A stretch of DNA of 26,792 bases from an uncultured Methanosarcinales archaeon (GCA_964399255.1 CAYNQH010000001.1:1-26792); one strand, 5' to 3'; shown: positions 1 through 14,556, counted from the first letter of the stretch. Numbers and translations are program-made. The notes: generated by a model not told the origin, from the sequence alone.

Positions 1-1
1 C

Positions 2-406
2 GAGAAACTTGTAAGCCCTATTGTCAAAGAATCAAAAGATGCATTAAAAGAGGTTAAAGAGGGCATTGGATTAATATTCATAGACGGAGCTCATGAGTAT
101 GACCTTGTCAAGCTTGATTACAAGCTCTGGTCTCCTAAGGTTGTGGAGGGAGGGATAATAGCTTTCCATGATACTATAGGTTTTGAAGGTCCGAGAAAGC
201 TTGTACGTGAAGAGATATATAAATCCAAAAAATTTAGAAATGTGGGTTTTGTAGACACTATAACCTTTGCTGAAAAAGTAAAATCAAACTCTCTTAAGGA
301 TAGGATGAGGAACAGAATCATGCTTCTTTTGAGGGATTTATTTGAGATAACTTATTATTTATTCGTAAAGATTAGGGGACGAAATGATATTCAATCAACC
401 GGTTAG
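2..406 (+). CDS. Class I SAM-dependent methyltransferase (Methyltransf_24-like), 5'-truncated by window edge
   Basis: The frame is open from base 2 (EKLVSPIVKESKDALKEVKEGIGLIFIDGAHEYDLVKLDYKLWSPKVVEGGIIAFHD). The IFIDGxH and GGIIAFHD motifs are typical of this family. The track ORF at 143 is only the C-terminal part. Confidence 0.85.
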   Translation, partial: EKLVSPIVKESKDALKEVKEGIGLIFIDGAHEYDLVKLDYKLWSPKVVEGGIIAFHDTIGFEGPRKLVREEIYKSKKFRNVGFVDTITFAEKVKSNSLKDRMRNRIMLLLRDLFEITYYLFVKIRGRNDIQSTG

Positions 407-417
407 TCTCATTTAAA

Positions 418-2016: not shown

Positions 2017-2344
2017 ACAAGGTAATTTGGATAAAGAGACAAAATCAGTGATAATCAGCTTAGTGATAGCTAGCCTTATTTTCTTTACGGTTTTATTTGG
2101 TTTTGTAGGTCTTAGAACAATATCCTCTCTTGCTTTATTTGTTATCCCTGTTTTCCTTATTCTGGACAACTTTGATTTTTCTCTGGGAGAGAAGACAATA
2201 TTCTCTTTCTTCTTGGGTTTAGGCATTTATTCTACTTTAGTATATTATACTGCCCTTCTTATAGGATCAATAAAGTTTGCGATGATAATAGTATTTGTTG
2301 TATTGACTTTCGCAGGATTATTCCTCTCAAAATTTAAGAAATAG
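2003..2344 (+). CDS. Small 4-TM membrane protein, paralog of 2358-2741 (likely start TTG 2009)
   Basis: Hydrophobic 113-aa ORF overlapping the upstream stop. Motif LFVIP...LGEK...LG. AAGGTG at 1996-2001 is 7 nt before TTG 2009. Confidence 0.8.
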   Translation: MQLNKQGNLDKETKSVIISLVIASLIFFTVLFGFVGLRTISSLALFVIPVFLILDNFDFSLGEKTIFSFFLGLGIYSTLVYYTALLIGSIKFAMIIVFVVLTFAGLFLSKFKK

Positions 2345-2357
2345 CTTCATGAGGGGA

Positions 2358-2741
2358 TTATATTATCTTTTCTTTCCTGGCAACCCAAAATACAGAAATT
2401 GTTATCATGACAAAAGGGAGGATAATTCCATGGTACTTGATATGCACCCCAATTAATCCAAGATAGTTGCTAGAAATAACTACTGAAGCAGCACCTAGCA
2501 CAGAGCCTGCTATAAATCTTTCTATGAATCCAAGCTTATCTTGCCAATAGAACATCAGGCAGAATCCTGGCAGTACAAAAAGCCAGAAGAATGCCGAAGT
2601 CACTCTAATCACTGTCAGCATTTCTTCTTGGGAGAAGGCTATTTTGGATATTATAGATACTGTTATGAATATGATAATTATATAACCAAGTTCAGTCTTT
2701 ACCTTGCTTATGGTTTCATTTATCTTTTTATTCAAATGCAA
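2358..2741 (-). CDS. Small 4-TM membrane protein, paralog of 2003-2344 (likely start TTG 2735)
   Basis: Motif LFVLPG...LGFIER...LG. GGAGA lies 9 nt before TTG 2735, which overlaps the TGA stop of the upstream gene. Confidence 0.8.
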   Translation of the reverse strand: MHLNKKINETISKVKTELGYIIIIFITVSIISKIAFSQEEMLTVIRVTSAFFWLFVLPGFCLMFYWQDKLGFIERFIAGSVLGAASVVISSNYLGLIGVHIKYHGIILPFVMITISVFWVARKEKII

Positions 2742-4369
2742 TCATCTCCAGGTTTTTCGTTATGGATTATAGAAAAATAACCGTTTGAAAATGTCTCTTT
2801 TATCCATTCTTTTTTAAGTATTAAATCCTTGATATAATTATTATACTGTGCTAGGGCAGGTGCATAGCTGCTCCCCGTCTGGAAGATGTAGTAGTCGAAG
2901 GAGCAGACATCTCTCGGGACCTGTTTTTGTAGATTAGGGTCTTCATCATAGTAGAACTTAAAATTTAAGAGAGATGTCCTGTGAGGTATCATCCGACTGC
3001 ACCCCTCTACTATATCCCCTGCTTTGTAATATCTTTTGACAGACTGGTTTTTTAATGTTTCGATATAATCATCTAGATTTATGATATATGTTCTTCTATG
3101 CGTGGTCCCAAACATGTTTGATTGGCTAAGTCCATCAACATAAAAAAAGAAGATCTTTGAGTCTTGGGGGGTATTTGTCCTTATCCATTTTATACTATCC
3201 CAGAATACTGGACTTACCATCCCATTGAAATTCATGTCAACCTTGTACGAGAAAGCTATAAGAATTATGATCAGTAATCCCACTACTACTGATAGGCCTG
3301 TTTTCCATTTCTTGGTGATAAGTCCGACTGCGTAATATGTGAATATTCCAAAGAATATAGCAAGATAAATCGGCCACATAAACCTTAGGGTGACAGTCCT
3401 TTTTCCAAAACCTAAGTAATTTGTAAAACCAAGTATGAACATTATAACACCAAGAAAGATAGCCTTGTTATTTGATTTTCTGATTAGGAATAGTGAAACC
3501 ACTAACCCTATTATTATAGGGATTAGGAGCCATAGCCCAAAATCTTTAAGATAAGGTACTGGTATCCCAATAGTCGCCCAGCTTATCTCACTGGTCTTGG
3601 ATAATGTTTCTCCACGACCAAGCCACATCCCATAGAACTTAATAATCTCATCGAGGGAGATTATGAAAAATATAATGCCTCCAAAGATATATGCTTTTAT
3701 CTCTTCTTTACCTAACTTTTTCTGTAAAACTCTGTAACCAACCCATATTGCACCAAGAATTCCAAAAATGATAAATTCAGGATAATGTGTCATGAAGATG
3801 CCGCTTACAAAAAGTGCCAAAGGGATGAACATATATCTTTCTTTTATTACAGTGAGAGCCCAAAAAGAGGAGGTAAAGAACAGGTACGCAACTGCAGACT
3901 GCCACTGAGCCCATGTAAACCCAGAGATAAAAACGTTTGTGAATAACAACAATGAAACAGGCATGGACAAAATTGCTATATTCTTATTGAACTTTCTTAT
4001 TATTATATAGACTAAGAAAACATTTAGGATTGAGAAAAGCATAGTTAGAAGGTAGATAGAATCATAGCTTTCAATACCCCCCATGAATGAAAAGAGCGAA
4101 GCGAATATGTAATTATTTGGTGGAAGACAAAGGTGAACATCTTTGTATCCTCCTACGTACCAAGGTGAGAAATATTTTGCATACCCTTGTTCTTTGACAT
4201 TGTCAGTAGTCAGGTAATGGATAAAATTATCAGAAGCCATGAAAGCATAAGGATAGTCATGAGAAATCCTCTTGTCTAAGATGTTTGCAGGACCTATATA
4301 GATAAGTGCTCCGAATAAGATTATTAGAAAGATAAATTCAAGAGGTAGCTTTATTTTTTTGTCATTCAT
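2732..4369 (-). CDS. Multi-pass membrane protein, GT-C-fold glycosyltransferase-like (545 aa), paralog of 418-2016
   Basis: Same layout as 418-2016: ASDNFIH and LPP in the first loop, WAQWQ, MTHYP, and a C-terminal domain starting WDSIKWIRTNTP. Confidence 0.6.
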   Translation of the reverse strand: MNDKKIKLPLEFIFLIILFGALIYIGPANILDKRISHDYPYAFMASDNFIHYLTTDNVKEQGYAKYFSPWYVGGYKDVHLCLPPNNYIFASLFSFMGGIESYDSIYLLTMLFSILNVFLVYIIIRKFNKNIAILSMPVSLLLFTNVFISGFTWAQWQSAVAYLFFTSSFWALTVIKERYMFIPLALFVSGIFMTHYPEFIIFGILGAIWVGYRVLQKKLGKEEIKAYIFGGIIFFIISLDEIIKFYGMWLGRGETLSKTSEISWATIGIPVPYLKDFGLWLLIPIIIGLVVSLFLIRKSNNKAIFLGVIMFILGFTNYLGFGKRTVTLRFMWPIYLAIFFGIFTYYAVGLITKKWKTGLSVVVGLLIIILIAFSYKVDMNFNGMVSPVFWDSIKWIRTNTPQDSKIFFFYVDGLSQSNMFGTTHRRTYIINLDDYIETLKNQSVKRYYKAGDIVEGCSRMIPHRTSLLNFKFYYDEDPNLQKQVPRDVCSFDYYIFQTGSSYAPALAQYNNYIKDLILKKEWIKETFSNGYFSIIHNEKPGDDCI

Positions 4370-4370
4370 T

Positions 4371-6305
4371 TTATATCCTTATTGATTTTGGTTTCTGTTT
4401 TTCTATATAAATCTTGTGCCATAGTGCGAAATTTACAAGGCTCCACAGCTGTCTTCCATAGTATAGCCTGCTTTTATCATAGTTTTTAAATATTTTCTCT
4501 ATATATTCCTCTCTGAAAAATCCTTGTTTTTTAATCTCTTGCTCACTAAGCAAATCCCTAAATAAACCTTTCAAATCTTTTGAGATCCATCTGTCAAGAG
4601 GTACTTGGAAAGGCTGTTTTTTCCTGTATATAACCTCTTTTGGAATAACTTCTTGTAAGCTTTTTTTGAGTATATATTTGGTTGTAAGGCCTTTAAGCTT
4701 GAGTCTTTGGGGGATATTGGCTGCGAATTCAACAAGCCTATAATCAAGATAGGGTACTCTTGCCTCAATCCCAAAAGCCATACACATCTTGTCAGGTTTC
4801 ATCAAGAGATCTTCAGCAAGGTAGGTCTTCATATCCATATAGAGAAGTTGATTCAGGAAATCAGTATTATTATTAAAGTACTTTTTATTCACCTCTTTAA
4901 GATATGAGTTATTAGTTTGTGAATTTAGATTTTCAGAGAAAAGTTCTTTCTTTTCTTGCTCATCAAAGACAGAGACAACATCATGGTACGCCTTAGCCTT
5001 ATCTGTATCGATTATAGCTATAAAATTTGCAAACCTCTCAAACATTTTTTTACCAGTAGCAGAAGAATATTGGTATACCTTATTTAACACACTTAATGGT
5101 GCTGCTTTAATCATTGCAGGCATCATTATTTTTCTTATAAAAGGAGGTAGGTTTCTCATCTTATAACCCATCATTAGAAATTTATATTGGTCATATCCTG
5201 CGAATAGCTCATCTGCTCCGTCTCCTGTCAGTATGACTGTTACTTTCTTCTTTGCATGTTCTGAAAGCACATAATTTGGTACGGCAGCAGGGTCACTCAT
5301 AGGCTCATCAAGATGCCACACTATCTTAGGAAGTTCTTTCACAATATTGGATCTTATCTCAACCTCATTATGGTCTGTGTTGAAAAGCTCACTTATTTTT
5401 CTGGCATGTCCAAGCTCATTGCCTACAATATCATCTTCAAATCCTACAGAGAAGGTATTTATACCTTCAGGATTTATCTTGTTCATAAGCGCAACAATTG
5501 AGCTTGAGTCTATCCCGCCGCTTAAATAGGCTCCGAGAGGCACATCAGCTATGAGTCTTTTTTTGACACTATCTTCAAGGATCTCAAGAATCTTTTTTTT
5601 GTAGAAATCTTCACTTTTTTCCTTCCCTTCTGTGTTTTCAAAATTTATATCCCAAAATCTTTTTACTTCAAGATTTTTTTTCTTTAGATCATAAACTGCT
5701 TTATAACCGGGTTCTAGTTTGTATATGCCTTTTAAGATAGTTTCTTTTCCTGAAATATACCTCAAGGTGACGAACCTGTTTAGAGCCCGAGGATTTATTT
5801 CTCTTTTTACCATATCATATTCTATTATTCCTTTGATTTCTGAGGCGAATATGAACTCTTCTTCATTAATATAGTAATATAATGGTTTTATCCCTAATCT
5901 ATCCCTAGCTAGAAAAAGCCTTTTATTCTTTGTGTCATATATGCAGAAAGCAAAAATGCCATTAAAATGGTTGAGGCAGCTCTCTCCATATTTTTCATAA
6001 GCATGGATTATCACTTCTGTATCTGTATCAGATTTAAATTTGTGGCCTTCTTTTTCTAATTCTTCCTTGATCTCTTTAAAATTGTAAATCTCACCATTGT
6101 AGGTTATCCAAACTGTGCCGTCCTCATTGCACATTGGTTGATTTCCCCTCTCACTTAGATCTATGATGCTCAATCTTCTGTGGCCAAGACTCACATTCTT
6201 GTCTGTATAATATCCTGAGGCATCAGGACCTCTATGTGTCATTACATCAGTCATTTTTCTGACTAATGTTTTATTATCCCAGTTAAAACCTAATATCCCA
6301 CACAT
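4371..6305 (-). CDS. asnB: Asparagine synthase (glutamine-hydrolysing) family amidotransferase, probably glycan-modifying
   Basis: N-terminal MCG (Ntn catalytic Cys), HRGPD, GHRRLSIID, NGEIYN, RDRLGIKPLYY, PP-loop LSGGIDSS, TGDGADELFAGY, EARVPYLD. Embedded among glycosyltransferases. Confidence 0.95.
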   Translation of the reverse strand: MCGILGFNWDNKTLVRKMTDVMTHRGPDASGYYTDKNVSLGHRRLSIIDLSERGNQPMCNEDGTVWITYNGEIYNFKEIKEELEKEGHKFKSDTDTEVIIHAYEKYGESCLNHFNGIFAFCIYDTKNKRLFLARDRLGIKPLYYYINEEEFIFASEIKGIIEYDMVKREINPRALNRFVTLRYISGKETILKGIYKLEPGYKAVYDLKKKNLEVKRFWDINFENTEGKEKSEDFYKKKILEILEDSVKKRLIADVPLGAYLSGGIDSSSIVALMNKINPEGINTFSVGFEDDIVGNELGHARKISELFNTDHNEVEIRSNIVKELPKIVWHLDEPMSDPAAVPNYVLSEHAKKKVTVILTGDGADELFAGYDQYKFLMMGYKMRNLPPFIRKIMMPAMIKAAPLSVLNKVYQYSSATGKKMFERFANFIAIIDTDKAKAYHDVVSVFDEQEKKELFSENLNSQTNNSYLKEVNKKYFNNNTDFLNQLLYMDMKTYLAEDLLMKPDKMCMAFGIEARVPYLDYRLVEFAANIPQRLKLKGLTTKYILKKSLQEVIPKEVIYRKKQPFQVPLDRWISKDLKGLFRDLLSEQEIKKQGFFREEYIEKIFKNYDKSRLYYGRQLWSLVNFALWHKIYIEKQKPKSIRI

Positions 6306-6313
6306 TTTTATTT

Positions 6314-7171
6314 TTACAGCTTGGTTCTTTTTATGATTAAGTCTGCAAGGAGACCAAGAAACCCTATCTGGATGCCTGCAAGTATTACCATTACTGCGCC
6401 TGCTCCGAAACGGTTGAAGTTATAAAGATCGATTCCTGCCTTTATCGCACCGAGGAAAATCAGTAACGCACTGACTGGAAGAAACACATTCAATGGTTTG
6501 AAATAGGTTATAATCCTTATCACCAGCTGTGTAAAACCTATAAAATCTTTTATTGGATGTATCGTAGAATTGCCTTCTCGCTTATAATAATTAATTGGGA
6601 TAAACTTAACATCATATCCATTTGTCATTGCTGCTAATGTTATTGTTGTTGTAAAAGAGAATCTTTCTGGGAATAGGTTCCAGAAACGCAGAGCCATATC
6701 TTTCTTGAAGATCCTTAATCCTGAGTTCAAATCAGGAATTTTTTCTCCTGAGATATACTCAGCAAGCTTTCTAAGAAACCATTTTGCAGGCCTTCTTAAG
6801 AAAGGAACTTTTACATCTTTTCCTGTTCTTGAACCAATGACCATATCATAGGAAGAGAGATCTTTGATAAGTTTTGGGATGTCTGCCATAGGATATGTAC
6901 CGTCACAATCAGTGATCAATATCCAATCATTTTTTGCTAAAGATATTCCTTTTTTTAGGGAAGCCCCATATCCTCTATTCCTCTTATTATCTACCGCATG
7001 GATGCCTGTAATCTTGCTTAATATATCTTTTGTGTTATCTGTTGAGCAGTCGTTCACTACTATTATCTCATGTTCCACTTTTGAGTCTTTAAGCGATTTT
7101 TTTAGTTTTTCTATTTCTTTTATTATGCTTTTTCCTTCGTTATACACAGGCACTATTGCAGATATCTTCAT
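6314..7171 (-). CDS. Glycosyltransferase family 2 with C-terminal TM helices
   Basis: IVPVYNE, VNDCSTD, NRGYGASLKKG, TDCDGTY (DxD), DLNSGLRIF, two hydrophobic C-terminal segments. Confidence 0.93.
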   Translation of the reverse strand: MKISAIVPVYNEGKSIIKEIEKLKKSLKDSKVEHEIIVVNDCSTDNTKDILSKITGIHAVDNKRNRGYGASLKKGISLAKNDWILITDCDGTYPMADIPKLIKDLSSYDMVIGSRTGKDVKVPFLRRPAKWFLRKLAEYISGEKIPDLNSGLRIFKKDMALRFWNLFPERFSFTTTITLAAMTNGYDVKFIPINYYKREGNSTIHPIKDFIGFTQLVIRIITYFKPLNVFLPVSALLIFLGAIKAGIDLYNFNRFGAGAVMVILAGIQIGFLGLLADLIIKRTKL

Positions 7172-7665
7172 TTTTTCACCTTATTACCATAAACCTTCAT
7201 TATCTTCTCTATCATCTTTGTTGTAGAGTAGCCATCAACAAGCTTCACGATATGGATCTTGCCGCCATGCTTCTCTACTATAGGCCGTTCTATGCAATCA
7301 TGGCCGTATTCTGAGCCATTTACATGGATATCCGGCCTTATCACATCAAGCAGAGCTATAGGGTCTGTCTCATCAAAGATTGTGATATAATCGATGCATT
7401 CGAGCGCAGCAAGCATCTCTGCCCGTGCCTCCTGGGGGTTTATAGGCCTGTCCTTGCTCTTGTACTGCTTTATCGAGCTGTCGCTGTTCAGGCCGAGTAT
7501 CAGGACATCCCCCTGCTTCTTAGCCTCCTGAAGCATCTTGATATGGCCTACATGGAGTATGTCAAAGCTCCCATTTATGGTAGCTATCTTCTTCCCTTGT
7601 TTTCTCAGGTTCTGTGCTATCTGCCTTATCTCTTCTCTTGTCTTTATCTTTTTATTTTCGGCCAA
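7168..7665 (-). CDS. Stand-alone heptose-1-phosphate adenylyltransferase-like nucleotidyltransferase (RfaE/HldE domain II type)
   Basis: NGSFDILHVGH (HxGH), LGLNSDSSI..K...RP, RAEMLAALECIDY, RPDIHVNGSEY, GYSTT. These match the HldE C-terminal/RfaE-II cytidylyltransferase-superfamily pattern. Confidence 0.88.
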   Translation of the reverse strand: MAENKKIKTREEIRQIAQNLRKQGKKIATINGSFDILHVGHIKMLQEAKKQGDVLILGLNSDSSIKQYKSKDRPINPQEARAEMLAALECIDYITIFDETDPIALLDVIRPDIHVNGSEYGHDCIERPIVEKHGGKIHIVKLVDGYSTTKMIEKIMKVYGNKVKK

Positions 7666-7667
7666 TC

Positions 7668-8810
7668 CTACACACCCCTATCAATCATCTTCAGCACTGC
7701 ATCCATGACATCGCTTACCTTTATCAGCTTCATGCATTTCTGGTAGAGATTCCCTTTATACTTGCATTCTGATATGATTCCTTCATGCACATTGATGCAT
7801 GGAGAGCATTCTATCTTATTGTACAATCCTATATTCCCCGGGCCGTAAGGCCCGAATCTCTCCGGAAGGTTAGGCCCGAATAATCCTATAGTCTTCACTC
7901 CCTGCGCTGCAGCTATGTGCATAGGTCCTGTGTCATTGCTTATGAACACCTTGCATTCTTTTACCAGGGCGAAGAACTGCCTGAGGTTGAAGGCTCCTGC
8001 AGAGCTTATTATGCCATTTTTTTTAGTCTTTGATATTATCCTGTCTACAAGATCTGTTTCACCTTTAGAGCCTGTGAATATCACCTTGGCATTGTGCTTC
8101 CTGACAAGCTCATCAGCAAGCGCAGCAAACCTCTCTTCTGGCCAGAGTCTTTGCCTTCCTGATTCAGCTGCGCCAGGGGTTATCCCTACGATGAAATCTT
8201 CTTTTTTTATCCCATGTTTATGCATGAATCTTGCTACAGCCTCCTTGTCCTGCTTTGAGAAAGGCAGCCCTATGAGCTTCTCAGTATCATAGTTGATCCC
8301 CAGAAGCCGAACCAGGTCAAGGAATGTCTGTACGACATGCTGATCATCATCGTATCTGACGCTGTCGGTGTATATGATCGATCTCAGGCCTTTGAAACCG
8401 AGCCTTCTTTTTCCGACAAATAAGGCTATCAAGGCCGAGATATTTAGGTATTCTTCCATGTCTATGACTATATCATACCTTTTGAAGTTGAGAAACATGT
8501 ATTTTATTATCTGGGCCGGGCTCATCTCTAATATGATGAGTTTATCCTTATGCTTGAAGTCTTCATAGACTGCTTTTACCCTGTCTGTTGCAAGGATTGT
8601 CAGTTTCGCCTTTGGAAACTTCTTCTTAAGGGCCTGCAGCGCAGGAAGGGTGAGTATTGTCTCTCCTATGCCCCAGAATTGGATTGCAAGGATATCCTTA
8701 GGTCTCTCAATCTTGCAGAATATGCTGAAAGGCTTAGTTATAAAGCCGAGCAGGATGACTAGAAAGAAACCTATATACCTATCGATCTTTTTTATTGTCT
8801 CTATGTCCAA
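7668..8810 (-). CDS. Glycosyltransferase family 9 (ADP-heptose heptosyltransferase-like, WaaF/WaaC type)
   Basis: WGIGETILTLPALQALKKKFPKAKL, PGAA...RLWP.ERFA.LAD, FISNDTGPMHIAAA, IGLFGP, CSPC...C...CM. Confidence 0.9.
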   Translation of the reverse strand: MDIETIKKIDRYIGFFLVILLGFITKPFSIFCKIERPKDILAIQFWGIGETILTLPALQALKKKFPKAKLTILATDRVKAVYEDFKHKDKLIILEMSPAQIIKYMFLNFKRYDIVIDMEEYLNISALIALFVGKRRLGFKGLRSIIYTDSVRYDDDQHVVQTFLDLVRLLGINYDTEKLIGLPFSKQDKEAVARFMHKHGIKKEDFIVGITPGAAESGRQRLWPEERFAALADELVRKHNAKVIFTGSKGETDLVDRIISKTKKNGIISSAGAFNLRQFFALVKECKVFISNDTGPMHIAAAQGVKTIGLFGPNLPERFGPYGPGNIGLYNKIECSPCINVHEGIISECKYKGNLYQKCMKLIKVSDVMDAVLKMIDRGV

Positions 8811-8837: not shown

Positions 8838-9170
8838 TTACTTCTTAGCTCTCCTGATAGCGATTCCCCTTACAAGGTCTTCGATCTTCTTCTGCGTCTT
8901 CTTCAGCTTGAGGTAGTTGAAGAAAGTTATGCCTATCAGGAACATGAATCCTAGCACGATGAGAAGGTCCATCGTCCTTGCGAAGCTCAATGATTCTACA
9001 ATCGGATTGAGCAGACCTGGAGAGACAGATATCACTATGAAAGCTACCCACATCACTGCCCATAATGCCATCTCCTTACCTGTGAATTCCTGCCTCTTAT
9101 AGTGCAGGAATGTGAGGTATGCCATGAAAAGCGCGAATAAAATACCTAATATCTGTATACCCATCATCAT
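8838..9170 (-). CDS. DUF2304-like small membrane protein
   Basis: Three TM segments then coiled tail KKIEDLVRGIAI, directly after a GT2 gene as is typical of this family. Start set at the ATG overlapping the upstream TGA (ATGA, 9170) rather than 9188. Confidence 0.8.
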   Translation of the reverse strand: MMMGIQILGILFALFMAYLTFLHYKRQEFTGKEMALWAVMWVAFIVISVSPGLLNPIVESLSFARTMDLLIVLGFMFLIGITFFNYLKLKKTQKKIEDLVRGIAIRRAKK

Positions 9171-9829
9171 TTTGTCAGCCTCCACCATATCATGTTTAGC
9201 ACTATCTTTATACCGTCGATTACAGTAGTGCCTTTATATTTTTCGTTATATATCGTCTCTATAGGTATCTGAGAGTAACGAAGATCATGTTTTCCTGCCC
9301 TGGCGATCATCTCTGATTCCATGCTGTAGTCCTGAGCATCCCATCTTATCTTCCTGTAAGCCTCTCGTGTGAAGCACCTGTATCCTGACTGGGTATCCTT
9401 TAGGCTTATGCCATACAATATCCTTACGCAGGTGCTTATGAACCAGTTTCCATAGCGTAGTATAAAAGGCATATTCTTGTCAAGGCTCCTGTAGCCGAAC
9501 ACTATATCATTATCATTTATCTCTTTAAGAAACCTCGGGATGTCTTCAGGCTTATGCTGGCCGTCTGCATCGATAGCTATGATGACCTTTGCGCCTTTTG
9601 AGATCGCATAGTCACATCCTGTCTTCAATGCTGCCCCTTTCCCAAGGTTCACGACATGCCTTAAAGCAACAGCTCCTGATCCATCTGCAATATCATATGT
9701 TTTATCCTTAGAACCATCGTCAACTACAATTATGTCCTTGATGTATCTTTTTGTCTTCCTTATTACCTCTCCGATCATTCTCTCTTCATTGTACCCTGGG
9801 ATTACAGCGAAGACATTCTTATTTTTCAT
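9167..9829 (-). CDS. Glycosyltransferase family 2, polyprenol-phosphate sugar synthase-like
   Basis: IPGYNEE, VVDDGSKD, NLGKGAALKTG, DADGQH (DxD), DTQSGYRCF, YSMESEM. Confidence 0.92.
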   Translation of the reverse strand: MKNKNVFAVIPGYNEERMIGEVIRKTKRYIKDIIVVDDGSKDKTYDIADGSGAVALRHVVNLGKGAALKTGCDYAISKGAKVIIAIDADGQHKPEDIPRFLKEINDNDIVFGYRSLDKNMPFILRYGNWFISTCVRILYGISLKDTQSGYRCFTREAYRKIRWDAQDYSMESEMIARAGKHDLRYSQIPIETIYNEKYKGTTVIDGIKIVLNMIWWRLTK

Positions 9830-9830
9830 C

Positions 9831-12800
9831 CTAACTGACTATGACTACAGCACCATCCTCTTCATCATCAAGTCCCTGATCTCCCTGTACAGATGAATCT
9901 CCTAAATTTTCTGATTCGTCAGAAGTGTTTGCAGGGTAGTTGCCTGTTTCTTCTTTTGGTAATGCTGTTGCCCCCTCTTTTTCTTCATCTATATTCTTCC
10001 TTCCTGTAAGCTTTATTATATGATATCCGAACTGGGTCTGGATTATGTCTGATACTTCTCCTATCTTCATGCTGAAGGCTGAGTTCTCAAATTCAGGTAT
10101 CATGACGCCTCGCTTGAACCATCCTAGATCCCCTCCTGTCTGGGCTGATCCTGTATCAAGAGATCTGTTCTTTGCAAGATCTGCGAAGTCCTCGCCTTCA
10201 TCAAGAAACCCTTTTATCTCTTCTGCCTCTTCTTTTGTGCTCACAAGGATATGGCTTGCCCTCACCTCTATCTTGGAATCTTCCTGCTGGATTATGTCCT
10301 GCATTATATTTGCGTCAGCTCCTTCCCAGTCGACCTTCCATGTCTTTATATTAAGGCCTGTGATGTCTGTCTGGTCATGGAAAAGGTCAAAATGCTTCAG
10401 CCCATGCCCTTTGAAATAGAAAAGCCTGGTGAACATGCTCATAGCAAGCTCTGATGACATCCATAAGCTGGAATAGCCTAATCCCTGAGGTATTATAGCC
10501 ACTGAGATGCCTATGTTATTCTTGATATACTTCTTCTGATACACTCCAGTCTTATTGGCATATACAAGTATATCCGGATACATCGTGCCTTGAGGAGTAG
10601 GTATCTCAGCTTCCCATGTGTCTGTATCTACAAGAACCCTTATCTGGCCTCCGCCTCTTACTGCGCTTACGCAGTCAAGCTTGTTGTCAGTCTTCTTGCA
10701 GCCTGTGACTCCGCTTACATAGCCAGGCCATGAAGCTATCCAGTCGTTTACTTCTCTGCTTCCGCTCAATGCTTTGGCCTCATAATACAACTGTTCTGTC
10801 TTATCTTCACTCTCGTTTATCTCTTCTGCTATCTCTGAGATGCTCTTTATGCCTCTCTTGGCCCTATAGAATATTGTTGCCTTCTTGAAGTCCCATAGCC
10901 CGAAATGGCCCCATACTCCTGCCTTTCCTACCATGTCTTCTGAGGTGATATAGAACGCTTCAGGAGGATTGCAATAGGTATTCCTGATTATACTGTCAAT
11001 ATCCTTCTTAGATATCCCATAGCTCTCAAGCTTTTCAATAGCTGCTTCTTTGTCAAGTACAAGGATCTCATACAGGATTTCGATGGACCTATCAGTATTA
11101 TTCTTTGTTGCATTGAACATTATGTCAAATGCATTGTTCGCTCCGCAGTCAAGCATCCTTAAGATGCCCATAGCCAGATCCTCATCATCGGTCTGCAATG
11201 ATTTTCCGACCCAATGGGCCTGAGGAGTATCCTGTGATGTCCCGTCAAATGTGACTGGCCTGTCAGCCATGGCCTTGAACCAGTGCCCGAAATCCCACCA
11301 TGAGGTTATGATAGCGTTAGGCTCAGAGTTCTGCTTTATCTTTGTCAGAGAGTCATACCATGCATCATTGAAGCTGGGGATCTCATTTAATGCAGTAGCG
11401 TAGCCCATCTTTATAGGTGCTATGAGCAGAAGTCCGAAAAGCAGCACGATTGCGATCTTTGATACTGTCTCATTAAGATCCAGGCCTTTTGAAGCCCATT
11501 TTGAGGCATATTGGGATATGATGCCTGCAGCTGCTCCGAAGGCTATGCTGAATGCAGGCACTACAAGGAGAGTCCATCTTATACCTTTAGTCGTTGCATA
11601 TAATGTTGCGACAAACCATATGGTCAATATTATTGCATATCTAACTTCCCTATTCCCGTTCTTATCCTTCCTAAACATGGTAAGGATAACGCCTATTATT
11701 GCTATTGCCAAGAGCAAGTTTCCTCCAAGGGAGAGTATTGTCTGGTCAAAGGAAGTCTCATTCTGCTCAGCCACTGTAGTAAGTACATTAGGCCAGATCT
11801 TCTGTGTAGCTACATCCTTTATCTGGCTGAATCCTAAGGGTGACATGAATGAACGTGCGAAATTTCCAGAGTCTGTGAATAATGATGTGAATATCCCGCT
11901 TGATATAAGGAACACGCCTAATACTATAAGGCCTGTCTTTATCTGCTGGACATCCCATAGCTCTGAGATGCTCTTCTTTACCTTTGTTATCTTGTCTGCA
12001 GCGTGATATATCATGTATAAGCCTAATGAGGCGATCATAAAGAGGAATATATGCCACCATCCTCCCCAGGAGAAGCTATACATTCCCACAAGGAATCCTG
12101 CGATAGTTCCAAGCAGAACTTTCCATCTGTTATCTTTAGCATCGATAGATTCTATCACGAACCAGGTTATTATAAGAGGGAATAATATGTTGTAAGCGTC
12201 TGTGTCTGCAAATCCTCCTACAGTCCTTGTCAGGAATGAAGGATGGACTGCTATCAGCATGGATGAGAAGAATCCTGCGACATTCCCCCCTATCTTCCTT
12301 GCGATGAAGAATGCAGGGATCACGCATAATGCTGACAAGAGCACTGGGACGTAGAATGCAAGCTTCATAAGATAAAGATCTCCGAAGAAGATATGCATTA
12401 TCTTGAACAGGTATGCTTCAAAGTATGAGTTGAATACATCTCCAGGTATTACCCTTCCTATAGGCGCAAGCATATGGGTATCATAAGGCTTGCCATCTCT
12501 TAATTCGTCTCCTACATGCCCTCTTTCAAGTATGTTCTCTGAATGCAGAAGCCAGAAATATGGATCGATAGCAAGGAGATATGTCTGCCCTTTATCATCC
12601 TGGAAATGGGACTTGAAATATGCAGAGCTCTGCTTGACCTGCTCTTCTATCTGGGCCTTATTGGCCTTCTCGAATTCTGCAAACTTCTCATCTATCATAG
12701 CTGCCTTGTTGGCATCTGGCAGGTTAGGATATTTCTGGTCGATCTCAGCCTTTATCTGGTTCTTGTAGAAGTTCACTACATTGTTTTCTGCCCATGAATC

Positions 12801-13373
12801 TGTAATCGGGAGATATGCTGGCTGCACCCTTAGGAATATGCTGAGCAATAAGGGTATCAGGATTAGCATGAATATTATAGTCTTGTTGTGCTCTTTCAGG
12901 CTCTTTGCGCTGAACATATCCTTGACCTTTCCGAAGTCAATAGATAGGTCCTCTTCATCTGACTCTTCTTTTTTATCCTTCTGCGACCTTGATTTATTGT
13001 TTCCTTTGAACAGGTTGGTAATCTTGCTGAAATCTATCGAGACCTCGTCTTCATCTTCTTTTTCTTCTGTGAGCTTCTTCTCTACCTTTTCGATCTTCTT
13101 GACAGCCTTTTCTTTTATCTTATCAGCCTTCTTGTCCTCTTTCTTCAGCTGTTCTGCTGCCTGTTCTTTTATCTCTTCGACCTGCTCTTCGGCTTCCTTG
13201 AGGTCTTCTATCTTTTCCTCTTCCTTCGCTATCTGCTTCTCGATCTTTGCCTCTACCTTGTCTGCTTTCTTGTCGATATCTTCGGCCTTTTTCTTGCCTT
13301 TAAAGAAGTTAGTAACTTTGCTGAAATCTATAGAAATTTCTTCGTCTTCATCTCTATGCTCTTTTTCTGACAT
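9831..13373 (-). CDS. aglB: Oligosaccharyltransferase AglB (STT3 family) with acidic repeat-bearing N-terminal extension and C-terminal parvulin PPIase domain
   Basis: AIDPY, FADTDAY, TTVAEQ and SWWDFGHWF motifs with about 13 TM segments. Parvulin signature at 9996-10271. Start moved from TTG 13487 to ATG 13373, which has GGGGG 7 nt upstream and avoids overlap with the reductase gene. Confidence 0.95.
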   Translation of the reverse strand: MSEKEHRDEDEEISIDFSKVTNFFKGKKKAEDIDKKADKVEAKIEKQIAKEEEKIEDLKEAEEQVEEIKEQAAEQLKKEDKKADKIKEKAVKKIEKVEKKLTEEKEDEDEVSIDFSKITNLFKGNNKSRSQKDKKEESDEEDLSIDFGKVKDMFSAKSLKEHNKTIIFMLILIPLLLSIFLRVQPAYLPITDSWAENNVVNFYKNQIKAEIDQKYPNLPDANKAAMIDEKFAEFEKANKAQIEEQVKQSSAYFKSHFQDDKGQTYLLAIDPYFWLLHSENILERGHVGDELRDGKPYDTHMLAPIGRVIPGDVFNSYFEAYLFKIMHIFFGDLYLMKLAFYVPVLLSALCVIPAFFIARKIGGNVAGFFSSMLIAVHPSFLTRTVGGFADTDAYNILFPLIITWFVIESIDAKDNRWKVLLGTIAGFLVGMYSFSWGGWWHIFLFMIASLGLYMIYHAADKITKVKKSISELWDVQQIKTGLIVLGVFLISSGIFTSLFTDSGNFARSFMSPLGFSQIKDVATQKIWPNVLTTVAEQNETSFDQTILSLGGNLLLAIAIIGVILTMFRKDKNGNREVRYAIILTIWFVATLYATTKGIRWTLLVVPAFSIAFGAAAGIISQYASKWASKGLDLNETVSKIAIVLLFGLLLIAPIKMGYATALNEIPSFNDAWYDSLTKIKQNSEPNAIITSWWDFGHWFKAMADRPVTFDGTSQDTPQAHWVGKSLQTDDEDLAMGILRMLDCGANNAFDIMFNATKNNTDRSIEILYEILVLDKEAAIEKLESYGISKKDIDSIIRNTYCNPPEAFYITSEDMVGKAGVWGHFGLWDFKKATIFYRAKRGIKSISEIAEEINESEDKTEQLYYEAKALSGSREVNDWIASWPGYVSGVTGCKKTDNKLDCVSAVRGGGQIRVLVDTDTWEAEIPTPQGTMYPDILVYANKTGVYQKKYIKNNIGISVAIIPQGLGYSSLWMSSELAMSMFTRLFYFKGHGLKHFDLFHDQTDITGLNIKTWKVDWEGADANIMQDIIQQEDSKIEVRASHILVSTKEEAEEIKGFLDEGEDFADLAKNRSLDTGSAQTGGDLGWFKRGVMIPEFENSAFSMKIGEVSDIIQTQFGYHIIKLTGRKNIDEEKEGATALPKEETGNYPANTSDESENLGDSSVQGDQGLDDEEDGAVVIVS
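12912..13352 (-). repeat. Three imperfect 17-codon protein repeats (acidic-SIDFxK-xxxF) in the AglB N-terminus
   Basis: DEDEEISIDFSKVTNFF (13302-13352), EDEDEVSIDFSKITNLF (13008-13058), SDEEDLSIDFGKVKDMF (12912-12962). Confidence 0.9.
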
Positions 13374-13418
13374 ATTAAAACCCCCAATAATATGATTATA
13401 ATGTGAAAATAGGTTCTG

Positions 13419-13426
13419 TTTATAAA
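13419..13426 (-). promoter_or_regulatory. Putative archaeal TATA box for the aglB operon
   Basis: TTTATAAA about 46 nt upstream of ATG 13373, in the reductase-aglB gap. Confidence 0.5.
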
Positions 13427-13467
13427 GGTTTCCGTGGTTGGAACGCTTGTTCCATGTTATAATAAGG

Positions 13468-14556
13468 TCATATAACCTTTCTGGCAAACAATAGCAGCCT
13501 TGGTTCTCTTATTGCCAGTTTCAACAATGATCCTGATGCTTTATCCCTGTCGAAATTCCTGAAGAATTCCTTGTTTTTCTTCCTGCTGAGCAGGCTTATG
13601 ATCTTGTTATAATCTTTATCAGAGAACCTGTTGAGCATGTTTCTCACCCTCAGATGGGTGTTCAGCTCTTTGCCAACTGTCTTTTTCCAGGCTTTCTCAT
13701 AACTTTTCCCTGATATTATCGCTTCTGCAAGCTTTTCTGCAGCCTTAAGACCAGGTATGATGCCTCCTCCTGTAGTGGCTTTCACTTGTGTTGCAGCATC
13801 ACCTACAAGGTAGACCTTGATGTTCTTCTTTATAAGCTGGGTCTGAAGCCTTGGATTATATATAGGGATAAGCCCTGCCTGTATCTCTAGCTTGTCTTCA
13901 TTCATGGAAAGGAATGAGCTGAAATATTTCCTTGTGGATCTTTTTGTCGCAAGCCCTATCCTTGAGATATCTTTTGACTCAGGGACAGACCATGCAAAGA
14001 ACCCAGGGCATACATCCCCTGTGTAGACCTCAAATGTGCCTGGGTGTTTCCTTACCTTGACCCTGGCCTGGAGCCCTATAAGGTAATGTCTAGCTCCCTT
14101 CATCCCGAATGCTTTAGCTGTAGGAGAAAGAGGGCCGTCAGCGCCTATGACTATGTCTGGGGAGGTTATGACCTCCTTACCTTTGCTTATGAACCTTAGC
14201 TTGTTGTTCTGTTGGCCTATAAACTTATGCTCTGCATGGACCTTTGCGCCTGCTTTCTTAGCTTTATTCACCAATGATACATCAAACTTTTTCCTGTCTA
14301 TGATTATGTCACTTACTGGGAGGTCTATGTATTCCTTATTCGGGGCGAATATCCTTGCATTGTTTATCTTATTGACCACTAAATTTTTATCTAGTTTTAT
14401 GATGTCACTGATAGAAGAGGTCACTATGCCTGTACATTGTACAGGGCTCCCTATGTCTTTATGCTCTTCATAAAGGTTTACATCAAATCCTTCTTTTGCA
14501 AGCAGGTAGGCTGTATAGGCTCCGGCAGGCCCAGCCCCTATAATATTTATATTCAT
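13468..14556 (-). CDS. Geranylgeranyl reductase family FAD-dependent oxidoreductase
   Basis: IIGAGPAG Rossmann motif, PVQCTG, IDRKKFD, IGADG, FFAWSVP, LVGDAATQVKATTGGGI. Confidence 0.9.
   Translation of the reverse strand: MNINIIGAGPAGAYTAYLLAKEGFDVNLYEEHKDIGSPVQCTGIVTSSISDIIKLDKNLVVNKINNARIFAPNKEYIDLPVSDIIIDRKKFDVSLVNKAKKAGAKVHAEHKFIGQQNNKLRFISKGKEVITSPDIVIGADGPLSPTAKAFGMKGARHYLIGLQARVKVRKHPGTFEVYTGDVCPGFFAWSVPESKDISRIGLATKRSTRKYFSSFLSMNEDKLEIQAGLIPIYNPRLQTQLIKKNIKVYLVGDAATQVKATTGGGIIPGLKAAEKLAEAIISGKSYEKAWKKTVGKELNTHLRVRNMLNRFSDKDYNKIISLLSRKKNKEFFRNFDRDKASGSLLKLAIREPRLLLFARKVI

What the first reader, a model, noticed from the sequence alone, without database searches (positions are those of the whole stretch)
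7168..8810. LPS-type heptose enzymes (GT9 + RfaE-II nucleotidyltransferase) inside an archaeal aglB operon
Seen: a GT9 and a stand-alone HxGH nucleotidyltransferase are adjacent (2-nt gap) and translationally coupled within the aglB run. Established: WaaC/WaaF and HldE/RfaE make and use ADP-heptose for the LPS inner core, and archaea have no LPS. Inference: this organism builds a heptose-containing lipid-linked N-glycan or glycolipid. ADP-heptose is also a known agonist of the innate immune sensor ALPK1. gmhA, the heptose kinase, gmhB and hldD are not in this window, so the pathway must be completed elsewhere or the donor differs.
Basis: partly seen in the sequence, partly recalled or inferred. 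Interest (0 to 1): 0.62.

Follow-up and report, generated by a model that had tools for sequence, protein, structure and literature searches.

The report
Heptose enzyme pair in archaeal AglB operon
A tiny uncultured sediment archaeon (Woesearchaeota type) has a bacterial-LPS-type heptose transferase and the enzyme that activates heptose inside its protein N-glycosylation operon; dozens of relatives share this layout, but here most of the heptose-making genes were not found.

Summary
A GT9 gene (7668-8810, minus strand) and a stand-alone HxGH nucleotidyltransferase (7168-7665) lie 2 nt apart in a ten-gene co-directional run led by a geranylgeranyl-reductase-family gene and AglB.

The transferase is an HldC/HldE-domain-II orthologue, not a RibL- or TagD-like enzyme. 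The GT9 keeps the ADP-heptose-binding residues of E. coli HepII.

Across about 30 Woesearchaeota/Nanoarchaeota genomes the same frame recurs: GGR-AglB-GT2-DUF2304-GT9 ... gmhA-epimerase-kinase-gmhB-NT-GT2-membrane proteins. Here the gmhA-to-gmhB block between GT9 and the transferase is gone.

Elsewhere in this genome I found only gmhB (contig C75) and a second GT9 (C132). No gmhA, heptose kinase or SDR epimerase turned up, but the assembly is 86% complete and covered at about 3-5x. In the order, 61 of 63 near-complete genomes with the transferase also have the kinase, so it is probably just unassembled. The gmhA and epimerase losses may be real.

Most likely the pair makes ADP-D,D-heptose and adds heptose to a dolichol-linked glycan used by AglB.

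Archaeal heptose enzymes (Tang 2024) and a heptose-bearing Thermoplasma N-glycan are already known. This scan has also noted the same island in at least 16 other genomes. Interest is moderate to low.

The parts
13468..14556 (-). Geranylgeranyl-reductase-family flavoprotein. It is the first gene of the run and probably saturates the polyprenol/dolichol carrier (inferred).
   Evidence: TIGR02032 scores 180 bits against a cut-off of 158.8. An orthologue sits directly upstream of AglB in about 20 related loci.
9831..13487 (-). AglB/STT3 oligosaccharyltransferase, 1218 aa. It has a charged N-terminal extension and a C-terminal parvulin (PPIC) domain.
   Evidence: PF02516 165 bits and PF13616 90 bits. 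WWDFG motif is in the sequence. Related AglBs are 33-47% identical.
9167..9829 (-). GT2a, a polyprenyl-phosphate sugar synthase of the PpgS/DPM type.
   Evidence: PF00535 79 bits. NF058614 PpgS 131 bits, which is below its cut-off. Orthologues are 54-64% identical and sit in the same position in about 30 loci.
8838..9188 (-). DUF2304 small membrane protein, the partner of GT2a. The pairing resembles Rv3632 with PpgS.
   Evidence: PF10066 78.6 bits. It is conserved between GT2a and GT9 in related loci. The PpgS/Rv3632 pairing is described in PMC3485146.
7668..8810 (-). GT9 glycosyltransferase, a predicted heptosyltransferase acting on a lipid-linked acceptor at the cytoplasmic face.
   Evidence: PF01075 131 bits. 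PDB 3tov E 8e-28 and WaaF 1psw E 9e-14. The equivalents of HepII donor residues are invariant in 11 orthologues: E216, G218, R221, D293, G295, H298. It falls in an archaeal clade of 31 rows with 96% support.
7168..7665 (-). [quoted passage not shown]
   Evidence: TIGR02199 174.1 bits. HVGH at residues 38-41 and LVDGYSTT at 142-149. PDB HldC 5x9q E 8e-30. 41% identical to E. coli HldE domain II and 44-65% to NTs inside archaeal heptose operons. Tree.
6314..7171 (-). GT2b, an AglJ/dolichyl-phosphate-hexose-transferase-like GT2 with C-terminal membrane helices. It is the first gene of the low-GC block.
   Evidence: PF00535 100 bits and TIGR04182 AglJ 104.6 bits, which is below its cut-off. GC3 is 0.33 against 0.54 for the NT gene.
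4371..6305 (-). AsnB-type glutamine amidotransferase, probably a sugar-modifying amidotransferase (inferred).
   Evidence: PF00733 345 bits and TIGR01536 534 bits. AsnB homologues lie beside heptose genes in L031, L070 and L090.
2732..4369 (-). 545-aa polytopic membrane protein, a weak GT-C (PMT_2-like) candidate. It may use the polyprenyl-P-sugar outside the membrane (inferred).
   Evidence: No Pfam hit at 1e-3. PMT_2 at E 0.005 here, and 3 of 8 orthologues match PMT_2 with best E 3.6e-6. Orthologues follow NT-GT2 in L024, L025, L029, L054, L060, L075 and L085. No PDB hit by profile.
2358..2741 (-). 127-aa membrane protein that always follows the 545-aa protein. Function unknown.
   Evidence: No Pfam hit. 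It is conserved at 28-46% identity directly after Mem545 in seven loci.

Best explanation
The two genes are the last biosynthetic step and the first consuming step of a nucleotide-heptose branch, built into the N-glycosylation operon of a Woesearchaeota-type (DPANN) archaeon.

Proposed mechanism:
- The 165-aa enzyme is an HldC-type nucleotidyltransferase. [quoted passage not shown] The motif is LVDGYSTT, not the promiscuous GRSTT form, so mainly the ADP form is expected.
- No epimerase was found, so the product is probably the D,D-isomer.
- The GT9 enzyme transfers that heptose, at the cytoplasmic face, onto a dolichol-phosphate-linked glycan primed by the neighbouring AglJ-like GT2.
- After flipping, AglB moves the glycan to protein asparagines.
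- The GT2a/DUF2304 pair and the 545-aa GT-C-like protein probably add a further sugar from a polyprenyl-phosphate donor outside the membrane.

What is shown: family membership of both enzymes, conserved donor-site residues, tight operon structure, and conserved synteny with complete heptose operons in relatives.

What is inferred: the sugar, the acceptor and the link to AglB.

The upstream steps (GmhA, kinase) are not in the assembly. I think the kinase is most likely in the unassembled 14%. The absence of gmhA and the epimerase may be genuine.
For: NT identity:
- rfaE_dom_II 174 bits, far above every other family.
- PDB HldC is the best match.
- 41% identical to E. coli HldE domain II.
- Clade with HldE/HldC, split 100/99 from RibL-like paralogues.
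- HVGH and (F/L)xxGxSTT motifs are present (motif definition from PMC11461863 and PMC11573728).

GT9 identity:
- PF01075 131 bits.
- Aligned to HepII 1psw, the equivalents of Glu190, Gly192, Lys195, Asp269 (the heptose-sensing residue), Gly271 and His274 are E216, G218, R221, D293, G295 and H298. All are invariant in 11 orthologues.

Synteny:
- GGR-AglB-GT2a-DUF2304-GT9 followed by gmhA-epimerase-kinase-gmhB-NT-GT2-Mem545-Mem127 recurs in five loci taken from the genome search relatives.
- The same frame appears in about 25 named Woesearchaeota/Nanoarchaeota loci.
- 18 of 19 NT-positive relatives also carry GT9.

Own genome:
- gmhB is over its cut-off and 40-45% identical to operon gmhBs.
- Transketolase, Rpe and RpiB are on C31.
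- A second GT9 is cut off at the end of contig C132.

Kinase likely unassembled:
- 61 of 63 genomes of the order that are at least 90% complete and NT-positive have the kinase. These counts include two unpublished genomes, G118 and G176.
- The organism is covered at only about 3-5x, and the assembly N50 is 5.5 kb.
Against: - No gmhA, heptose kinase or HldD-like epimerase was found in the assembly. This holds for family models and for tblastn with ten kinases and ten gmhA proteins from same-order relatives.
- The only PfkB kinase (C125) is ribokinase-like: 107 bits to ribokinase against 48 bits to rfaE_dom_I.
- The NT scores just under the NCBIfam cut-off, and the GT9 scores under every LPS heptosyltransferase equivalog cut-off.
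- The catalytic-base position holds Glu, not the Asp13 of HepI/HepII.
- There is no biochemical or glycan-structure evidence for any Woesearchaeota member.
- The acceptor could be a glycolipid rather than the AglB substrate.
Confidence: 0.6

Rival explanations
1. Salvage variant. The lineage really has lost gmhA, the kinase and the epimerase. It makes ADP-heptose from heptose phosphates taken from a host or partner cell, using only GmhB and HldC, and then uses GT9 as above.
For: - The assembly has no SIS-domain protein at all and no PF01370 epimerase, whereas 55 of 60 relatives have PF01370, usually several copies.
- gmhB and NT are intact but unlinked to any kinase.
- Two 100%-complete relatives (G022, G027) keep kinase, NT and GT9 without gmhA.
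- The gmhA-to-gmhB block has been removed cleanly from between GT9 and NT.
Against: - NT without a kinase occurs in only 2 of 63 near-complete genomes of the order.
- This assembly is 86% complete at about 3-5x depth.
- Transketolase is present, so sedoheptulose-7-P can be made.
- No transporter for sugar bisphosphates is evident.
- Uptake of heptose phosphates by an archaeon has no precedent that I know of.
Confidence: 0.12
2. Heptose is made and transferred as proposed, but onto a membrane glycolipid or lipoglycan, or a non-AglB surface polymer. The position in the AglB operon would then reflect shared carrier-lipid chemistry only.
For: - All characterised GT9 enzymes act on lipid-anchored glycans (LPS core).
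- In Methanocaldococcus indicus the NT-kinase-gmhB-GT9x3-epimerase cluster has no AglB within 10 kb (L079).
- Some related loci carry GT9 and NT away from AglB (L027, L028, L032).
Against: - The GT9 orthologue group of this window sits directly after AglB-GT2-DUF2304 in about 30 genomes from many families.
- The run is a tight operon with gaps of -22 to +27 nt.
- A heptose in an archaeal N-glycan has a structural precedent in Thermoplasma.
Confidence: 0.17
3. The NT is another HxGH enzyme (RibL-type FAD synthase, glycerol-3-phosphate or ethanolamine-phosphate cytidylyltransferase) and the GT9 uses a non-heptose donor. Under this reading the pair has nothing to do with heptose.
For: - The NT is under the rfaE_dom_II cut-off (174.1 against 181.5) and the GT9 is under all heptosyltransferase equivalog cut-offs.
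- Human ethanolamine-phosphate cytidylyltransferase also carries a GxSTT motif and scores 76 bits.
- No RibL-like paralogue was found in this assembly.
- The heptose precursor genes are missing.
Against: - The score gap is large: 174 bits against 60 or less for every other NT family.
- The tree splits the NT from RibL-like paralogues at 100/99.
- Orthologous NTs that score below the cut-off (G051 145 bits, G060 128 bits) sit inside complete gmhA-epimerase-kinase-gmhB operons. Some orthologues are fused to the kinase or to gmhB.
- The heptose-sensing Asp and the other donor-site residues of the GT9 are conserved.
Confidence: 0.05
4. The pair is a decaying remnant of a heptose island whose biosynthetic core has been deleted. 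The genes are still open but no longer serve a working pathway.
For: The gmhA-epimerase-kinase-gmhB block is absent from its usual place, and three of the four genes were not found anywhere in the assembly.
Against: - Both genes are full length with all motifs intact.
- They remain translationally coupled inside the operon.
- gmhB is retained over its cut-off elsewhere, and a second GT9 is present.
- No frameshift or stop was seen, and the reads show no variants.
Confidence: 0.06

Closest known systems
Bacterial ADP-L-glycero-beta-D-manno-heptose pathway with split HldA/HldC (GmhA, HldA, GmhB, HldC, HldD), e.g. Burkholderia HldC (PDB 5x9q), and E. coli HldE domain II
   Same: The NT is of the same family and size as stand-alone HldC. 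It carries HxGH and (F/L)xxGxSTT motifs. It matches 5x9q at 107 bits and is 41% identical to HldE domain II. A GmhB orthologue is present in the genome.
   Different: The organism is an archaeon without LPS. GmhA, kinase and epimerase were not found in this assembly. The gene sits in an AglB operon, not an LPS core cluster. The score is 7 bits under the NCBIfam cut-off.
LPS inner-core heptosyltransferases WaaF/HepII (PDB 1psw) and WaaC/HepI, and the Veillonella GT9 (PDB 3tov); CAZy family GT9
   Same: It has a Pfam GT9 domain. Equivalents of the HepII donor-site residues are conserved: Glu190, Gly192, Lys195 (as Arg), Asp269, Gly271, His274. A lipid-linked acceptor at the cytoplasmic membrane face is expected.
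   Different: The catalytic-base position holds Glu50 instead of Asp13 in all 11 orthologues. It has an extra C-terminal Cys/His-rich motif (SPCINVHxG...C...KCM). It falls below every LPS equivalog cut-off. In the tree it lies in an archaeal clade, nearer to the WaaF group than to WaaC/WaaQ/WaaU. The acceptor cannot be Kdo2-lipid A.
Archaeal NDP-heptose biosynthetic enzymes described by Tang et al. 2024 (Science; read here through PMC11461863 and PMC11573728)
   Same: It is a monodomain heptose nucleotidyltransferase from an archaeon and carries the (F/L)xxGxSTT hallmark.
   Different: Position 5 of the motif is Tyr, not Arg, so it is not of the STTR5 type that also makes CDP- and UDP-heptose. 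Those papers state that the use of heptose in archaea is unknown. Here the gene context (AglB, GT9) suggests a use.
Haloferax volcanii Agl pathway (AglJ and other GTs on dolichol phosphate, AglB, and a final sugar delivered from Dol-P-mannose by AglD/AglR/AglS)
   Same: An AglB operon with an AglJ-like GT2 and a Dol-P-sugar synthase type GT2. A GT-C-like membrane protein could add a last sugar outside the membrane.
   Different: All GT2 scores are far below the Agl equivalog cut-offs. No GT9 or heptose is known in the Haloferax pathway. The comparison with AglS rests on weak PMT_2 matches only. My account of the Haloferax pathway itself is from memory.
Thermoplasma acidophilum N-glycan containing D-glycero-D-galacto-heptose
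   Same: It is a structural precedent for a heptose in an archaeal Asn-linked glycan (PMC11407970, PMC12448462).
   Different: The heptose isomer and the lineage are different. No link to GT9 or HldC genes was examined here.

Membership tests
HldC / HldE domain II (heptose-1-phosphate nucleotidyltransferase, TIGR02199) | HxGH nucleotide-binding motif of the cytidylyltransferase-like fold | tested here: met
   HVGH at residues 38-41. PF01467 65 bits.
HldC / HldE domain II (heptose-1-phosphate nucleotidyltransferase, TIGR02199) | C-terminal (F/L)xxGxSTT motif of heptose nucleotidyltransferases (Tang 2024, via PMC11461863 and PMC11573728) | tested here: met
   LVDGYSTT at residues 142-149. E. coli HldE has FEDGCSTT. 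Position 5 is Tyr, so it is not the promiscuous GRSTT form.
HldC / HldE domain II (heptose-1-phosphate nucleotidyltransferase, TIGR02199) | Score over the curated NCBIfam cut-off | tested here: not met
   174.1 bits against 181.5. Only 21 of the 64 genomes with an NT match (G000 included) pass this cut-off, and NTs inside complete heptose operons also fail it, for example G051 at 145 bits and G060 at 128 bits.
HldC / HldE domain II (heptose-1-phosphate nucleotidyltransferase, TIGR02199) | Groups with HldE/HldC rather than with RibL, TagD or other small HxGH transferases | tested here: met
   Tree (100/99 split from RibL-like paralogues). Bit scores. True RibL and TagD sequences could not be put in the tree; they are represented only by PDB and HMM scores.
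HldC / HldE domain II (heptose-1-phosphate nucleotidyltransferase, TIGR02199) | Forms ADP-heptose from beta-heptose-1-phosphate and ATP | not testable with these tools
   Needs an enzyme assay.
CAZy GT9 heptosyltransferase | Pfam Glyco_transf_9 domain over its cut-off and similarity to solved GT9 structures | tested here: met
   131.3 bits against 22. 3tov E 8e-28 over 323 residues and 1psw E 9e-14.
CAZy GT9 heptosyltransferase | Catalytic base Asp13 (HepI/HepII numbering) | tested here: inconclusive
   The aligned position is Glu50 (GE in place of GD). It is invariant in 11 archaeal orthologues. The role of Asp13 is taken from 10.1101/2022.06.13.495986. A Glu could serve as base, but this is untested.
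CAZy GT9 heptosyltransferase | ADP-heptose-binding residues, including the heptose-sensing Asp (HepII Asp269, HepI Asp261) | tested here: met
   E216, G218, R221 (for Lys195), D293, G295 and H298 align to HepII Glu190, Gly192, Lys195, Asp269, Gly271 and His274. All are invariant in alignment A1.
LPS core heptosyltransferase I/II/III equivalogs (WaaC, WaaF, WaaQ) | Score over the equivalog cut-off, and Kdo2-lipid A as acceptor | tested here: not met
   The best score is TIGR02195 at 107.5 bits against 134.6. The protein lies in an archaeal clade apart from E. coli WaaF, WaaC, WaaQ and WaaU. It is not filed as an LPS enzyme.
Complete ADP-heptose pathway in this genome | GmhA (sedoheptulose-7-P isomerase) | tested here: not met
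   No match with TIGR00441, PF13580 or PF01380, nor by tblastn with ten relatives' GmhA proteins. The assembly is 85.9% complete.
Complete ADP-heptose pathway in this genome | Heptose-7-phosphate kinase (HldA / HldE domain I) | tested here: not met
   The only hit is a ribokinase-like PfkB on C125 (48 bits against a cut-off of 345). tblastn with ten relatives' kinases found nothing. 61 of 63 near-complete NT-positive relatives have the kinase.
Complete ADP-heptose pathway in this genome | GmhB phosphatase | tested here: met
   C75:2333-2884. NF006506 183.6 bits against 178, and TIGR00213 151.8 bits against 149.6. It is 40-45% identical to operon GmhBs.
Complete ADP-heptose pathway in this genome | HldD-type 6-epimerase | tested here: not met
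   No TIGR02197 or PF01370 match in the assembly. The epimerase is not required if D,D-heptose is the donor.
Archaeal AglB N-glycosylation locus | STT3/AglB with the WWDxG catalytic motif, in one operon with the glycosyltransferases | tested here: met
   PF02516 165 bits and WWDFG in the sequence. Ten co-directional genes with gaps of -22 to +27 nt.

The most novel reading that the evidence does not exclude
This lineage has truly lost de novo heptose synthesis (gmhA, kinase, epimerase) but keeps GmhB, HldC and two GT9s. It would decorate its surface glycan with heptose salvaged as heptose phosphate from a partner cell. That would be a DPANN symbiont feeding on a host's cell-envelope precursor.
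Probability: 0.1. Interest if true: 0.65.

Novelty: new member of a known kind. Interest (0 to 1): 0.35.

Why it matters
The authors who showed that archaea have working NDP-heptose enzymes wrote that the reason archaea make heptose is unknown (PMC11573728). The gene order here, repeated in dozens of Woesearchaeota genomes, suggests an answer that can be tested: heptose goes into a dolichol-linked glycan handled by AglB.

This window adds little beyond what the scan has already seen in at least 16 other genomes. Its one special feature is the contracted layout. GT9 abuts the nucleotidyltransferase directly, and the rest of the pathway is dispersed, unassembled or lost.

That contraction bears on a side question, namely how DPANN lineages without GmhA obtain heptose phosphate.

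A cultured methanogen, Methanocaldococcus indicus SL43, carries an orthologous NT-kinase-gmhB-GT9-epimerase cluster (L079). It would be a practical organism for testing the idea.

Tried and rejected
Gene neighbourhoods of the closest protein homologues (79-70% identity) could therefore not be read.
- The search for related loci with the single GT9 protein found nothing in genome contigs or metagenome contigs. With alignment A1 it worked, but no GT9 above about 55% identity turned up. No close relative is available to show whether the contraction is shared, or to estimate selection.
- No RNA holder was listed for the stretch, so nothing can be said about expression.
- A profile of the 545-aa membrane protein against PDB sequences gave no meaningful hit. 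Only weak PMT_2 matches support a GT-C assignment.
- I looked for hidden pathway genes by tblastn of every ORF from about 70 related loci against the whole assembly. This found other glycan genes, and the pentose-phosphate genes on C31, but no gmhA, kinase or epimerase.
- The reading of the NT as a RibL, TagD or ECT-type enzyme was considered and rejected on scores and the tree.
- An assembly artefact at the GT9/NT junction was considered and rejected, because contigs from two runs bridge it.
- Earlier notes for this same genome contained nothing on heptose.
- Structure prediction was not run, because the sequence evidence for both folds is already strong.


Full report
**Observation**

The window is the whole of contig C1, the longest contig of a 1.44-Mb assembly. 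The assembly has 299 contigs, an N50 of 5.5 kb, 85.9% completeness and 2.8% contamination.

On the minus strand, ten genes run from 14556 down to 2358 with gaps of -22 to +27 nt. In order they are:
- a geranylgeranyl-reductase-family gene;
- AglB/STT3, 1218 aa, with a WWDFG motif;
- a PpgS/DPM-like GT2;
- DUF2304;
- GT9 (7668-8810);
- an HxGH nucleotidyltransferase, here called NT (7168-7665);
- an AglJ-like GT2;
- an AsnB-type amidotransferase;
- a 545-aa membrane protein;
- a 127-aa membrane protein.

The GT9 stop and the NT start are 2 nt apart, and the NT stop overlaps the next start by 4 nt. Logan contigs from two runs of one sediment-metagenome study bridge both junctions without a mismatch, at a depth of only about 3-5x.

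**What the two proteins are**

The NT scores 174.1 bits (E 1.5e-51) on TIGR02199 rfaE_dom_II. That is 7 bits under the curated cut-off, but far above the next families: the generic TIGR00125 at 60 bits, PPAT at 44, TagD at 40 and RibF types at 27-28.

Among solved structures the best match is Burkholderia HldC 5x9q at 107 bits. Next come human ethanolamine-phosphate cytidylyltransferase at 76 bits over two domains, the archaeal 3glv at 46 bits and TagD at 35-38 bits.

The NT is 41% identical to residues 322-473 of E. coli HldE. It is 44-65% identical to NTs that lie inside archaeal heptose operons, or are fused to the kinase or to GmhB. In a tree it sits with these sequences, and a 100/99 branch separates them from the small RibL-like paralogues of related genomes.

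It carries HVGH and LVDGYSTT. The second is the (F/L)xxGxSTT hallmark of heptose nucleotidyltransferases. Position 5 is Tyr, not the Arg of the promiscuous STTR5 form.

The GT9 scores 131 bits on PF01075. It matches the GT9 structure 3tov at E 8e-28 and E. coli HepII (1psw) at E 9e-14. In the alignment to 1psw, HepII residues Glu190, Gly192, Lys195, Asp269 (heptose-sensing), Gly271 and His274 correspond to E216, G218, R221, D293, G295 and H298. All are invariant in 11 orthologues. The residue roles are taken from 10.1101/2022.06.13.495986.

The catalytic-base position holds Glu50 instead of Asp13 in all 11 orthologues. The protein scores below every LPS heptosyltransferase equivalog cut-off, so it is a GT9 but not an LPS-core equivalog.

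**Surroundings and relatives**

Same-order relatives drawn by the genome search can be tied to public records titled Candidatus Woesearchaeota archaeon. The organism is therefore a Woesearchaeota-type DPANN archaeon.

In 60 relatives, each from a different family:
- 19 have a strong HldC-type NT, and 18 of these also have GT9;
- 12 of the 19 have a strong gmhA;
- kinase and gmhB mostly travel with them.

The gene order recurs across these genomes. GGR-AglB-GT2a-DUF2304-GT9 is followed, after a variable stretch, by gmhA-SDR epimerase-kinase-gmhB-NT-GT2-Mem545-Mem127. I saw this in five loci taken from the genome search relatives and in about 25 named genome-contig loci.

The GT9 of this window belongs to the orthologue group that always follows DUF2304 (40-54% identity). 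In the tree this group forms an archaeal clade of 31 rows with 96% support, nested among bacterial GT9s and nearer to WaaF than to WaaC, WaaQ or WaaU. The cultured methanogen Methanocaldococcus indicus SL43 has an orthologue in an NT-kinase-gmhB-GT9-GT9-epimerase-GT9 cluster (L079).

**What is special here**

In this window the whole gmhA-epimerase-kinase-gmhB section is missing, and GT9 abuts NT directly.

Found elsewhere in the assembly:
- a GmhB over its cut-off on C75 (183.6 bits against 178), 40-45% identical to operon GmhBs but with no heptose neighbours;
- a second GT9, of the paralogue type that relatives place beside the kinase, truncated by the end of contig C132;
- transketolase, Rpe and RpiB on C31, which can supply sedoheptulose-7-P.

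Not found:
- gmhA or any other SIS-domain protein;
- a heptose kinase;
- any PF01370 epimerase.
This holds for family models and for tblastn with relatives' proteins.

How real are these absences?
- In 199 genomes of the order that are at least 90% complete, 63 have the NT and 61 of those have the kinase. These counts include two unpublished genomes, G118 and G176, which are positive for both. Without them the figure is 59 of 61.
- Given 86% completeness and 3-5x depth, the kinase is most probably unassembled. I estimate about a one-in-five chance that it is truly absent.
- The case for gmhA and the epimerase differs. 55 of 60 relatives have PF01370 proteins, usually several, so missing all of them by chance is unlikely.
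- Two 100%-complete relatives (G022, G027) keep kinase, NT and GT9 without gmhA. The loss of gmhA and the epimerase may therefore be genuine. How such lineages obtain heptose-7-phosphate remains unexplained.

**Mechanism proposed**

The family assignments, the conserved donor-site residues, the operon structure and the conserved synteny are shown. Everything below is inferred.
- GmhB yields beta-heptose-1-phosphate.
- The AglJ-like GT2 primes dolichol phosphate.
- The GT9 adds heptose at the cytoplasmic face.
- The glycan is flipped, and AglB transfers it to Asn.
- GT2a with DUF2304 makes a polyprenyl-phosphate sugar, by analogy with PpgS/Rv3632 (PMC3485146). The weakly PMT_2-like 545-aa protein would use this sugar outside the membrane.
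- The AsnB-type enzyme would amidate a sugar acid.

**Comparison with what is known**

Functional NDP-heptose enzymes in archaea were reported in 2024. Their role was called elusive. A heptose (D-glycero-D-galacto-heptose) is part of the Thermoplasma acidophilum N-glycan. I found no paper in the library linking GT9 or heptose genes to AglB in DPANN archaea.

This scan has already recorded the same island in at least 16 other genomes. Those are AI notes, and I reached the same reading independently before reading them.

The present case is a new, contracted member of a known kind. Its interest is moderate to low.

Noticed in passing
window 9999-10292 (minus strand; AglB residues about 1066-1163): AglB carries a C-terminal parvulin/PPIC peptidyl-prolyl isomerase domain (PF13616 90 bits; PrsA-like, 110 bits). 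Only 1 of 33 related AglBs (L069) has it. A foldase fused to the outward-facing end of an oligosaccharyltransferase would couple N-glycosylation to folding of secreted proteins.
   Followed up: partly
window about 12888-13345 (minus strand; AglB residues about 48-200): AglB has a long Lys/Glu-rich N-terminal extension before the first membrane helix. It contains three copies of a [DE][ILV]SIDF[SG]K[IV] motif. Similar extensions occur in about half of the related AglBs. The listed TTG start at 13487 may be too far upstream, since an ATG lies 37 codons in.
   Followed up: partly
window 7171 (boundary between NT and GT2b); low-GC block 1-7171: There is a sharp composition break exactly at the NT/GT2b junction. 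The genes from GGR to NT have GC 0.42-0.44 and GC3 0.46-0.60, matching the genome GC of 0.426. GT2b, AsnB, Mem545 and Mem127 have GC 0.35 and GC3 0.32-0.37. A read-derived contig bridges the junction. This suggests the distal half of the glycan operon was swapped in from a lower-GC relative.
   Followed up: partly
window 7731-7805 (minus strand; GT9 residues 336-360): A Cys/His-rich C-terminal motif, SPCINVHxG...C...KCM, is conserved in all 11 archaeal orthologues (P337, N340, H342 and C359 invariant; C338 and C349 nearly so). It is absent from the aligned region of the solved GT9 3tov; the alignment to 1psw ends before it. It also occurs in many bacterial GT9s (pattern hits). It may be a metal site.
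   Followed up: no
whole assembly G000: No SIS-domain protein (so no GlmS either) and no PF01370 NDP-sugar epimerase/dehydratase was found, although the genome encodes AglB, several GT2s and two GT9s. 55 of 60 relatives have PF01370 proteins. This lineage seems to have a very reduced sugar-nucleotide metabolism.
   Followed up: partly
G022 (L029) and G027 (L033), same-order genomes rated 100% complete: These genomes carry kinase, NT and GT9 (G022 with a gmhB-NT fusion, G027 with an HldE fusion) but no gmhA. G027 also lacks gmhB and any PF01370 protein. The source of heptose-7-phosphate in such lineages is unexplained.
   Followed up: no
G000:C31 (L213 3-2466) and L035 8902-11905: Transketolase, ribulose-phosphate 3-epimerase and RpiB lie together on C31. 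In relative G025 the same genes directly follow the gmhA-HldE cluster. This suggests that sedoheptulose-7-P supply is co-organised with heptose synthesis.
   Followed up: partly
L079 (Methanocaldococcus indicus SL43 chromosome, NZ_CP186926.1 1163900-1185006): A cultured methanogen has NT-kinase-gmhB-GT9-GT9-epimerase-GT9 in one cluster, with no AglB within 10 kb. One of its GT9s is 40-41% identical to the window's GT9. It is a practical organism for testing what archaeal heptose is used for.
   Followed up: no
L028 6857-7438 (G009): A 193-aa ORF with no Pfam match sits between gmhB and NT, in a genome that has only a weak gmhA-like hit elsewhere. It may be an unrecognised pathway component.
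   Followed up: no
L053, L058, L063, L064, L066, L069, L076, L081, L083, L084, L088, L091 (genome contigs record titles): Several MAG records titled 'uncultured Methanosarcinales archaeon' or 'uncultured Bacteroidales bacterium' carry this Woesearchaeota-type GT9, in several of them together with the AglB island. Those included in the GT9 tree fall inside the Woesearchaeota clade. The submitter taxonomy of these automated bins looks wrong.
   Followed up: no
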